A stretch of DNA of 64,000 bases from an uncultured Verrucomicrobiota bacterium (GTDB lineage: Bacteria; Verrucomicrobiota; Kiritimatiellia; SS1-B-03-39; UBA6053). The notes beneath the pieces were generated by a model, which searched no databases, had not been told where the DNA came from, and saw only the letters and a program-made list of their open reading frames with translations. The translations under genes were made by a program, and so were the position numbers. Location of the stretch: NCBI GenBank assembly GCA_964385155.1, contig CAYLNG010000003.1:74784-138783 (forward strand), given 5' to 3'. How positions within the stretch are numbered: the first letter of the stretch is position 1; the number at the start of each line of letters is the position of its first letter. This document shows, piece by piece, positions 4,223 through 60,220 of this stretch.

Positions 4223-4469
4223 ACCACAAAACAGGAAGGAATCGGGCGCATCCGCGGTAATCATTTTAGCTGCAAGCCCTTTCTTTCAAAGATCTTGCCG
4301 CATCCGCGTCCCTTTCGTCCCCTCGGTTGGAATTTCCCGAAGAAAAGATAACACCCGGACTTTTCTTTTCAGTTGCGGGCGGAGCCCACGTTAGGTTTAG
4401 GGTTGTCGCTCCCCCGGGGACGTGCTAGGACGGCCGACCCACCCGTTACCCACCCCCCCGACGTCCCGG

Positions 4470-47191: not shown

Positions 47192-47428
47192 GCTCCTTCT
47201 TCTCCGCGCCCCCCCCCATCCAGATCCATTTTCTCTGGTGCGGGTCCCGCCAGCAGCACCGGGAGGTACGACCGGTCCGAAGGATCCTGCCGCCCGCGGA
47301 GCGGCTGGAGACGGCCGTGCTGAACACCGACTCCCCTTTCCTTAACCCAACGCGGGCTGAGCGGAAGAATCCCCGCGATTCATCTCTCGCATACACACGG
47401 TTAAGTATCCTCTTCCTTTGGGAGATTT

Positions 47429-47589
47429 GAAAAACCAGGGATGGGAGGGATGCAGATGGTACAAGATCTTTGAGCGAAGGGCCATGCGCGAACCCGAGAA
47501 ATACTCTTTCGCTCTTTCAACTATTTCGCGCAAGAATTGGCAGCCCAAGAGATTTCCGCAGATGCGCACTGTCCATTCCCGTTTTTAGG
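47429..47589. repeat. Structured 161-nt element, copy 1 (candidate ncRNA or REP/MITE-like element)
   Basis: Shares with 60022-60182 the blocks gggagggatgcagatg, atctttgagcgaa, gcagccaa, ccgcagatgcgc and ccgtttttagg. Closing stem pairs 47430-47441 with 47577-47586 (2-nt bulge). Inner stem pairs 47483-47490 with 47527-47534. Lies in the convergent intergenic region. Confidence 0.7.
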
Positions 47590-59813: not shown

Positions 59814-60020
59814 ATGGCCGAAGATTCCCTCCAACTTGATTCCACGGAAAAACCCAAGCCCCAAGCCCCCCTCTGGATGCTCATCGTGGCACTCCTTGGC
59901 TTTGCCTGCTTCACCGCAAGCCTGGTCCTCCAGATTTTGGAAAGGAATTACATGCGGGGCAAGGCCACAAGCGAAACAGACACCTTCGCGGCGCAGACGC
60001 TCATTCCCCTTTCTGAATAA
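59814..60020 (+). CDS. Small hypothetical membrane protein (68 aa)
   Basis: ATG preceded by aaggag at a spacing of about 7 nt. One predicted TM (LWMLIVALLGFACFTASLVLQIL). No homology recognised. Confidence 0.4.
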   Translation: MAEDSLQLDSTEKPKPQAPLWMLIVALLGFACFTASLVLQILERNYMRGKATSETDTFAAQTLIPLSE

Positions 60021-60021
60021 A

Positions 60022-60182
60022 CCTAAAAACGGTGAGGGGAGGGATGCAGATGTGGCAACATCTTTGAGCGAAAGGGCTTGTGCGGAACCGAGGCATACCC
60101 GAAGGTATGGTAAGTGTTTCGCACAAGCGCTTGCAGCCAAAGAAATGGCCGCAGATGCGCCCGAACCATTACCGTTTTTAGG
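60022..60182. repeat. Structured 161-nt element, copy 2
   Basis: Perfect 12-bp closing stem cctaaaaacggt / accgtttttagg (60022-60033 with 60171-60182). Perfect 8-bp inner stem cttgtgcg / cgcacaag (60077-60084 with 60120-60127). Apical hairpin catacc-cgaa-ggtatg. Shares sequence blocks with 47429-47589. Confidence 0.75.
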
Positions 60183-60220
60183 ATAAACGCCACCCCATTC
60201 TTCCAAGGAGGAGGGGGGAC

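What the first reader, a model, noticed from the sequence alone, without database searches (positions are those of the whole stretch)
47429..47589. Two 161-nt copies of a structured element with compensatory stem substitutions (candidate novel ncRNA or REP-like family)
47429-47589 and 60022-60182 share the same length and, in the same order, the blocks gggagggatgcagatg, atctttgagcgaa, gcagccaa, ccgcagatgcgc and ccgtttttagg. The central 30 nt or so are unrelated. Both fold on paper into a closing stem (perfect 12 bp in copy 2; 10 bp with a 2-nt bulge in copy 1) and an inner 8-bp stem. In the inner stem, copy 1 has catgcgcg/cgcgcaag and copy 2 has cttgtgcg/cgcacaag. A C-G pair in copy 1 is therefore U-A in copy 2, and an A.A mismatch in copy 1 is a U-A pair in copy 2. 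Covariation of this kind argues for selection on RNA or DNA structure rather than a recent duplication. Both copies lie in the same orientation in intergenic regions between convergent genes and end in a stem followed by TTTTTA. They could act as terminators or insulators, be small RNAs, or be non-autonomous mobile elements. I do not recognise the sequence as any named RNA family.
Basis: seen in the sequence. Interest (0 to 1): 0.6.

Follow-up and report, generated by a model that had tools for sequence, protein, structure and literature searches.

The report
Hairpin mini-transposon of IS1380 type
The two 161-nt look-alikes are copies of a small hairpin-shaped hitch-hiker transposon (a MITE) that is moved by IS1380-type transposases. 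This is a familiar kind of element, but its fold is unusually well conserved and favours one strand across two bacterial classes.

Summary
In detail: 47428-47589 and 60022-60182 are two copies of one ~162-nt element. It is not a two-copy oddity. The 3.2-Mb genome holds about 65 loci of the family (34 near full length), and the window has a third, deleted copy at 4224-4331.

The element has 11-14-bp terminal inverted repeats (CCTAAAAACGG...CCGTTTTTAGG) and 5-bp AT-rich target-site duplications (ATAAA around copy 2). Nearly all copies are intergenic, and no Rfam family matches. Related genomes carry IS1380-family insertion sequences with the same ends and the same 5-bp duplication. The window's own genome has no such transposase, so its copies are orphans. 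Copy 2 still folds strongly (-92 kcal/mol); copy 1 has decayed (z = -0.6).

It separates propagating lineages and is not maintained at resident loci.

Three things go beyond an ordinary MITE:
- A core unrelated to the IS is conserved in Kiritimatiellia and Chthoniobacterales.
- The + strand folds about 20 kcal/mol better in every lineage.
- Copies lie 27:5 antisense to co-directional neighbouring genes.

Earlier (unchecked) notes of this scan report IS1380-type palindromic MITEs in other phyla. Verdict: new member of a known kind.

The parts
60022..60182 (+). Copy 2: intact 161-nt palindromic MITE of the young subfamily A
   Evidence: Scores 171 bits against model R1. Folds as one long hairpin at -92.4 kcal/mol, z = -12. 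It is 91-97% identical to 11 other copies in the genome.
60022..60035 (+). Left terminal inverted repeat of copy 2 (CCTAAAAACGGTGA)
   Evidence: Pairs with 60169-60182. The same ends occur on all intact copies.
60169..60182 (+). Right terminal inverted repeat of copy 2 (TTACCGTTTTTAGG)
60017..60021 (.). Left copy of the 5-bp target-site duplication ATAAA. It overlaps the TAA stop (60018-60020) of the 68-aa ORF.
   Evidence: Read directly; 5/5 match.
60183..60187 (.). Right copy of the 5-bp target-site duplication ATAAA
47428..47589 (+). Copy 1: old, decayed 162-nt copy of subfamily B. The left end is degenerate and no duplication is recognisable.
   Evidence: Scores 112.6 bits against R1. MFE is -45.4 kcal/mol, z = -0.58. 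Only 37 of 61 reference pairs remain Watson-Crick.
4224..4331 (-). Third family member: a ~108-nt deletion derivative that lacks the inner stem and the apical module. The deletion falls between the two CTTG repeats.
   Evidence: nhmmer hits at C3:79005-79105. Scores 45 bits against R1 with model ends 1-162 and the centre missing. Sequence shown.
60086..60117 (+). Apical module of copy 2 (CCGAGGCATACC-CGAA-GGTATGGTAAGTG), the part conserved across classes
   Evidence: Alignments. The module has no similarity to the IS interior.

Best explanation

Proposed mechanism: an IS1380-family DDE transposase supplied in trans recognises the ~14-20-bp terminal inverted repeats. It inserts the unit into AT-rich sites and duplicates 5 bp of the target.

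Shown here:
- The terminal repeats, the duplications and the copy number.
- Partner insertion sequences with identical ends and the same duplication length in two related lineages.
- The window's own genome has no such transposase, so its copies are stranded fossils. Copy 2 is still intact, copy 1 is decayed, and the copy at 4224-4331 has an internal deletion.

Inferred:
- The hairpin is kept by compensatory change only along lineages that go on to propagate, so the fold matters for spreading and not for the host.
- G.U(T) wobbles and a direct CGAG...CGAG pair, which can form tandem G.A pairs, make the + strand fold about 20 kcal/mol better in every lineage. The selected fold therefore probably forms on one strand as single-stranded nucleic acid (DNA or RNA).
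For: Family size:
- About 65 loci, 34 near full length, each matching on both strands, which shows the element is a palindrome.

MITE signatures:
- Terminal inverted repeats are visible in the alignment.
- Of 16 elements with both ends intact, 10 have a perfect 5/5 duplication and 3 have 4/5.
- Perfect duplications are 82% A+T in a 63% G+C genome.
- 61 of 65 loci are intergenic.
- No Rfam family matches.

Partner IS in genus g4 (G008):
- A 1,676-bp IS has perfect 18-bp inverted repeats, CCTGAATCCGTGAGATAA, identical to that genus's MITE ends, and a TCAAT duplication.
- Its transposase scores 294.7 bits on NF033539 (cut-off 180) and 1e-28 on PF13701.

Replication in another family (G034):
- 107 IS1380 transposase matches.
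- IS ends CCTG[GA]ATCCGTCAG.
- 163-nt MITEs with the same ends and the conserved core, flanked by TAATA and TCTAA duplications.

No transposase in the window's genome.

Structure:
- 47 consensus pairs, 28 with changes on both sides.
- 90.8% of cells paired, against 75% in shuffles and ~40% when slid.
- Young copies fold at z -9 to -15; old copies fold at z ~0.

Strand asymmetry:
- -92 vs -70 and -93 vs -75 kcal/mol in the two main families.
- All 6 distant copies favour the + strand.
- 27 of 27 Chthoniobacterales copies favour it, mean -23 kcal/mol.
Against: - No partner IS with the exact G000-type ends (CCTAAAAACGG...) was found. The partner assignment for this subfamily rests on homology of design with the g4 and G034 lineages.
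- No empty site could be shown. The only congeneric genome is 72-81% identical and synteny breaks at every tested insertion.
- The MITE shares only ~17 bp with the IS. The origin and role of its conserved core are unexplained.
- A dsDNA cut-and-paste or copy-paste DDE mechanism has no obvious need for a strand-specific hairpin.
Confidence: 0.85

Rival explanations
1. The element is primarily a host non-coding or cis-regulatory RNA gene family, and its fold is selected at each locus.
For: - Strong covariation.
- G.U pairs occur only on the + strand.
- A conserved apical stem-loop carries an invariant wobble across two classes.
- Orientation relative to neighbouring genes is non-random.
Against: - Terminal repeats plus 5-bp duplications mark each copy as an insertion.
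- Resident copies decay to z ~0, copy 1 among them.
- The element was not found in the sister species.
- Copy number swings from 0 to about 90-100 between relatives.
- There is no Rfam match.
- The better-folding strand is mostly antisense to local transcription (27:5).
Confidence: 0.06
2. Some copies have been co-opted as bidirectional transcription terminators or insulators at gene ends, copy 2 included, which starts 1 nt after a stop codon.
For: - Convergent gene gaps are enriched: 11 of 22 close contexts in G000.
- G000-type ends read 'stem then T5' on both strands.
- Copy 2 abuts the TAA of the 68-aa ORF.
Against: - The T5 run is itself paired with A5 inside the stem.
- The terminator scan finds nothing.
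- The sister families' ends (CACGGATTCAGG) have no T run.
- An AT-rich target preference alone would place insertions at gene ends in a 63% G+C genome.
Confidence: 0.12
3. The hairpin is kept by templated 'quasipalindrome' correction, in which one arm is copied onto the other during replication, and not by selection. On this view the compensatory changes carry no functional meaning.
For: - Copy-specific double changes occur even in the outer arms, in L063, L061 and L066.
- Long palindromes are known hot spots for such templated mutation (established knowledge; not tested here).
Against: - Conserved asymmetric internal loops and G.U wobbles persist across classes when correction should erase them.
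- Old resident copies are not corrected; they decay.
- The asymmetry always favours the same strand.
Confidence: 0.1
4. The element is a REP/REPIN-type repeat spread by a RAYT (IS200/IS605-like Y1) transposase.
For: The copies are palindromic, intergenic and numerous.
Against: - REPs are 20-40 nt and make no target duplication.
- Here the unit is 162 nt, with 5-bp duplications and ends identical to IS1380 elements.
Confidence: 0.02

Closest known systems
IS1380-family insertion sequences (ISEcp1, ISPme1, IS1247; NCBIfam NF033539, Pfam PF13701)
   Same: - Ends beginning with CC.
- 5-bp (sometimes 4-bp) AT-rich target duplications.
- Terminal repeats identical over 17-18 nt to IS copies in G008 and G034.
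   Different: - The element has no transposase gene.
- Its 128-bp interior has no similarity to the IS.
- The window's genome lacks any IS1380 transposase.
bcr1 of the Bacillus cereus group (Okstad 2004, Klevan 2007, Kristoffersen 2011, as summarised in PMC3184786)
   Same: - About 155-160 bp.
- 5-bp direct repeats.
- Dispersed and non-conserved positions.
- Compensatory changes that keep a fold.
- Structural stability lost repeatedly in resident copies (one search compared).
   Different: - bcr1 folds as a cruciform-like pair of stem-loops; this element is one long hairpin.
- bcr1 is shown to be transcribed; that was not testable here.
- No sequence similarity is expected, and the phylum and the partner differ.
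Correia/nemis elements of Neisseria and ERIC/IRU of enterobacteria (classic palindromic MITEs; PMC3184786)
   Same: - Short terminal-repeat elements of ~100-160 bp.
- They fold into long hairpins.
- They sit in intergenic regions, often at gene ends.
   Different: - Those duplicate TA; this one duplicates 5 bp.
- Their partners are other IS families or unknown.
- The strand-asymmetric fold and the cross-class conserved apical module seen here are not features I know to be reported for them (own knowledge).
Tn3-derived TIMEs / IMU (PMC4133298; PMC3184786)
   Same: Non-autonomous elements with a 5-bp duplication, with ends borrowed from an autonomous transposon and an unrelated core.
   Different: - Tn3-type 38-bp ends starting with GGGG.
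- About 250-290 bp long.
- A different transposase family.

Membership tests
Bacterial MITE | Short (<~400 bp) with no transposase ORF | tested here: met
   161-163 nt; the whole length is one hairpin.
Bacterial MITE | Terminal inverted repeats | tested here: met
   CCTAAAAACGG...CCGTTTTTAGG on all intact copies.
Bacterial MITE | Target-site duplication of fixed length | tested here: met
   5 bp. Of 16 intact-ended copies, 10 are perfect and 3 are 4/5. Also seen in g4, G034 and Chthoniobacterales copies.
Bacterial MITE | Many dispersed copies, patchy between relatives | tested here: met
   About 65 loci in G000, 0 found in the sister species, about 90-100 in G004.
Bacterial MITE | Ends shared with an autonomous element that encodes the transposase | tested here: inconclusive
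   Met for the sister subfamilies in G008 and G034. No IS with the exact G000-type ends was found, and G000 has no IS1380 transposase.
Bacterial MITE | Demonstrated mobility (empty versus filled sites, or an assay) | tested here: inconclusive
   Four loci were compared with the only congeneric genome. Synteny breaks at each one.
IS1380-family association | Partner transposase passes the curated IS1380 model | tested here: met
   NF033539 at 294.7 bits against a cut-off of 180; PF13701 at 1e-28; 107 matches in G034.
IS1380-family association | 4-5-bp duplication and CC termini (family traits from my own knowledge of ISfinder) | tested here: met
   IS copies are flanked by TCAAT and ATAGA. All ends start with CC.
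Any Rfam RNA family | Covariance-model match | tested here: not met
   No hits at gathering score on the window. Nothing on the elements at E <= 10.
REP/REPIN | 20-40-nt palindrome with no target duplication, associated with a RAYT transposase | tested here: not met
   The unit is 162 nt with 5-bp duplications. RAYT genes were not searched for.
Intrinsic terminator | GC-rich stem followed by an unpaired T run | tested here: not met
   The scan finds 0 sites. The T5 run is paired with A5 within the stem.
Structured, transcribed MITE (bcr1 / ERIC type) | Transcription of the repeat | not testable with these tools

The most novel reading that the evidence does not exclude
The conserved ~90-nt core, above all the apical stem-loop (A-GGC-RY-ACC / loop / GGT-RY-GTC-GAG), may be a functional single-stranded module that the element needs in order to propagate. 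It is not derived from the IS, its stems covary, its G.U wobble is invariant, and its better-folding strand is always the same one.

It could be a folded-strand DNA substrate for an IS1380-type transposase, or an RNA made from the element. Either would be a step so far unknown in transposition by DDE-transposase MITEs. It would also explain the fixed ~162-nt length across two classes and the 27:5 antisense orientation bias.
Probability: 0.25. Interest if true: 0.65.

Novelty: new member of a known kind. Interest (0 to 1): 0.4.

Why it matters
For annotation, this accounts for about 65 unannotated repeats in this genome and hundreds in relatives. It also warns against reading covariation in them as evidence of RNA genes.

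For mobile-DNA biology, it provides a well-defined family in which three puzzles can be tested by experiment:
- Why a MITE keeps a core unrelated to its driver IS over class-level divergence.
- Why one strand always folds better.
- Why copies lie antisense to their neighbours.

The identical 20-nt ends in Kiritimatiellia and Chthoniobacterales also point to exchange of IS1380-type elements between classes.

Tried and rejected
- Rfam: the gathering scan of the window and a permissive scan of four element loci found nothing on the element.
- Solo terminal repeats in G000 were checked as possible IS ends. They turned out to be ~60-nt arm-to-arm deletion derivatives.
- Empty-site test against the only congeneric genome: copy 2 and three other young copies were tried. 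The flanks map to different contigs, or only one flank is found, so the test says nothing.
- A concatenated joined-flank query was prepared but not used because it was unwieldy.
- Searches for an IS with G000-type ends: tblastn of the G008 transposase against G000 and against 80 Chthoniobacterales/Verrucomicrobiota loci found nothing. The search for related loci with the single transposase reached only close relatives.
- IMU/ISSod9 was considered as an IS1380 precedent, but ISSod9 appears in the Tn3/TIME literature, so IMU is only an analogue.
- Two cyanobacterial genome papers that mention both IS1380 and MITEs do not link the two.
- The model search over a 150-genome phylum sample found nothing outside the class. 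The pattern scan later showed that sample had simply missed the Chthoniobacterales carriers.
- The attC, hammerhead and IHF-site resemblances considered while reading the sequence do not fit the consensus motifs.

Full report
OBSERVATION

The two stretches are real and alike. The inner-stem difference is as described: catgcgcg/cgcgcaag against cttgtgcg/cgcacaag. Both copies lie on the + strand between convergent genes. Copy 1 sits between an ABC-F ATPase gene and a methyltransferase gene. Copy 2 sits between sucD plus a 68-aa ORF and a PepSY_TM-like gene.

A FAMILY, NOT A PAIR

BLAST against the window's own genome (3.2 Mb, 93 contigs) found 32 matches. Iterated nhmmer found about 65 loci, 34 of them near full length. 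Every locus matches on both strands with nearly the same score, so the element is a long imperfect palindrome.

The alignment shows terminal inverted repeats, CCTAAAAACGG...CCGTTTTTAGG. Of 16 elements with both ends intact, 10 are flanked by a perfect 5-bp direct repeat and 3 more by a 4/5 match. Copy 2 is flanked by ATAAA (60017-60021 and 60183-60187), and the left copy overlaps the TAA stop of the small ORF. Perfect duplications are 82% A+T in a 63% G+C genome.

By my rough gene calls, 61 of 65 loci are intergenic, and convergent gaps are over-represented at 11 of 22 close contexts.

There are two subfamilies:
- Subfamily A is young: 12 copies at 90-98% pairwise identity, copy 2 among them.
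- Subfamily B is older and includes copy 1.

Deletion derivatives also exist:
- A form of ~108-110 nt lacks the apical part. One lies in the window at 4224-4331 on the - strand.
- Arm-to-arm forms of ~60-78 nt.

No Rfam family matches, either at gathering score on the window or at E <= 10 on the elements.

THE DRIVER

A sister family of the same length occurs in another genus of the same family (G004, G008, G011, G014) and in G013. Its ends are CCTGAATCCGTGAGATA... and it also has 5-bp duplications. G004 alone has 185 end matches, or roughly 90-100 copies.

In G008, a 1,676-bp element (L071:1202-2877) is bounded by perfect 18-bp inverted repeats, CCTGAATCCGTGAGATAA, and flanked by TCAAT on both sides. 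It encodes a 451-aa protein that passes the curated IS1380 model (NF033539, 294.7 bits against a cut-off of 180) and Pfam PF13701.

The link replicates in a different family of the class. G034, a two-contig genome, has:
- 107 IS1380 transposase matches.
- IS copies of ~1,650 bp ending in CCTG[GA]ATCCGTCAG, one of them flanked by ATAGA.
- 163-nt elements with those same ends that match the covariance model over its full length. They are flanked by TAATA and TCTAA.

The MITE shares only the ~17-nt ends with the IS, and its interior is unrelated.

The window's genome has no IS1380 transposase, neither by the family model nor by tblastn. No two of its copies are identical, so its copies look orphaned and immobile.

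STRUCTURE

Copy 2 folds as one hairpin: -92.4 kcal/mol as RNA (z = -12) and -48.3 kcal/mol as DNA (z = -8.4). Copy 1 folds no better than shuffled sequence: -45.4 kcal/mol, z = -0.58.

Across the 34 full-length G000 copies, those at least 93% identical to copy 2 fold at z -9 to -15. The fold then fades with divergence to z near 0. The host therefore does not maintain the fold at resident loci.

Between lineages the fold is maintained. On 26 sequences from three genera, the consensus hairpin has 47 pairs, and 28 of them show changes on both sides. 90.8% of cells are paired, against 75.3% in shuffles and 28-42% when partners are slid. The covariation score is 0.41, against 0.05-0.11 for the slid controls. 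Many of these changes represent a single split between two lineages, so they count pairs and not independent events.

SPREAD

Covariance model R1 found full-length matches in 10 of 151 genomes of the class, in five families. It found none in the sister species. The distant copies keep four features:
- A length of ~163 nt.
- CC[CT]...[AG]GG ends.
- AT-rich 4-5-bp duplications.
- An apical module, A-GGC-RY-ACC / loop / GGT-RY-GTC-GAG, whose stem covaries (GGCATACC/GGTCTGTC against GGCGCACC/GGTGCGTC).

A 150-genome phylum sample gave nothing more. However, a pattern scan for the G000-type end found it, identical over 20 nt, in dozens of contigs of Chthoniobacterales and Verrucomicrobiota MAGs and in another Kiritimatiellia MAG. 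Those copies are 162-163 nt, have the same right end, carry 5-bp duplications, fall into the same deletion classes, and have a homologous apical module. The family therefore spans at least two classes, and identical ends in both suggest exchange of the driver between them.

STRAND ASYMMETRY AND ORIENTATION

In every lineage the strand that carries the conserved apical motif folds better than its complement:
- -92 against -70 kcal/mol for copy 2, and -93 against -75 kcal/mol for the g4 consensus.
- 18 to 29 kcal/mol better in all six distant copies.
- Better in 27 of 27 Chthoniobacterales copies, by 23 kcal/mol on average.

The cause is G.U(T) pairs that occur only on that strand, five in each master sequence and mostly at different positions. 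A direct CGAG...CGAG pair that can form tandem G.A pairs adds to it.

Using rough home-made gene calls, the better-folding strand lies antisense to co-directional flanking genes in three datasets:
- 11:1 in g4.
- 7:2 in G000.
- 9:2 in Chthoniobacterales.

Together that is 27:5. I cannot tell whether this reflects selection against the strong hairpin in mRNAs, a replication-linked bias, or a transcript made by the element itself.

COMPARISON WITH KNOWN ELEMENTS

The Delihas review (PMC3184786) lists long RNA-level stem-loops as a classic MITE feature. It describes bcr1 as ~155 bp with 5-bp direct repeats, transcribed, with compensatory changes, and with stability lost repeatedly in resident copies. 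That is the closest precedent in behaviour.

The IS1380 family is known for recognising end sequences loosely and for mobilising adjacent DNA (PMC9330008). I found no paper describing IS1380-linked MITEs in this phylum.

Earlier notes of this scan, which are unchecked AI notes, report IS1380-type palindromic MITEs in chlamydia-like, Cloacimonadota, Acidobacteria, Verrucomicrobia, Omnitrophota and Nitrospirota genomes. Some of them mention orientation bias. I reached the IS1380 assignment before reading those notes.

VERDICT

The 'non-autonomous mobile element' reading is right, and the 'RNA gene' reading is not supported for these loci. The element is a new member of a known kind. The unexplained remainder is the conserved core that does not come from the IS, the strand-specific fold, and the orientation bias.

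Noticed in passing
window 47330-47427: Just left of copy 1 lies a member of a second small repeat family: ...CCCCGCGATTCATCTCTCGCATACACAC... followed by the hairpin ATCCTCTTCC-TTTG-GGAGATT. Other copies are at G000 C39:18128, C11:28787 and C1:198485. The hairpin part directly abuts several other old MITE copies (C8:45260, C25:28860, C6:62413), as if it were a preferred landing site or a nested repeat.
   Followed up: partly
G000 C2:~251,000-251,390 (outside the window; L005/L106): Immediately right of a MITE copy, at a contig end, there is a tandem array of a ~57-bp unit: GGGCTACAGGTGACCCTCACCCGTGCCGCCAGGGCGGGGGGCTCGTTTTGGTGGGAG.
   Followed up: no
G000, several loci near MITE copies (e.g. flanks of C8:45262, C39:17810, C7:87213): A GC-rich REP-like palindrome, CGCAGCGGCTGAAGCCGCCGCGCGG, recurs in intergenic regions. 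It appears to be a separate repeat family.
   Followed up: no
G034 (L119, L121-L128): This two-contig Kiritimatiellia genome carries 107 IS1380-transposase matches. Most show 1-2 in-frame TAG codons inside the match. I did not examine whether this is decay, a split ORF or recoding.
   Followed up: no
window 60017-60021 / ORF 59814-60020: The target duplication of copy 2 (ATAAA) overlaps the TAA stop of the conserved 68-aa membrane ORF, so the insertion landed on the stop codon and the duplication preserved it. In the sister species the orthologous ORF is followed 18 nt later by a different convergent gene (L081).
   Followed up: partly
L069:2104-2472 (G004): One g4 copy has its central ~25 nt replaced by ~230 bp of unrelated sequence between intact arms. 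This could be a nested insertion or captured filler.
   Followed up: no
L129-L208 (Chthoniobacterales / Verrucomicrobiota MAGs): The 20-nt end CCTAAAAACGGTGATGGGAG is identical in Kiritimatiellia and Chthoniobacterales although the element interiors differ strongly. This suggests recent sharing of one transposase specificity between classes.
   Followed up: partly
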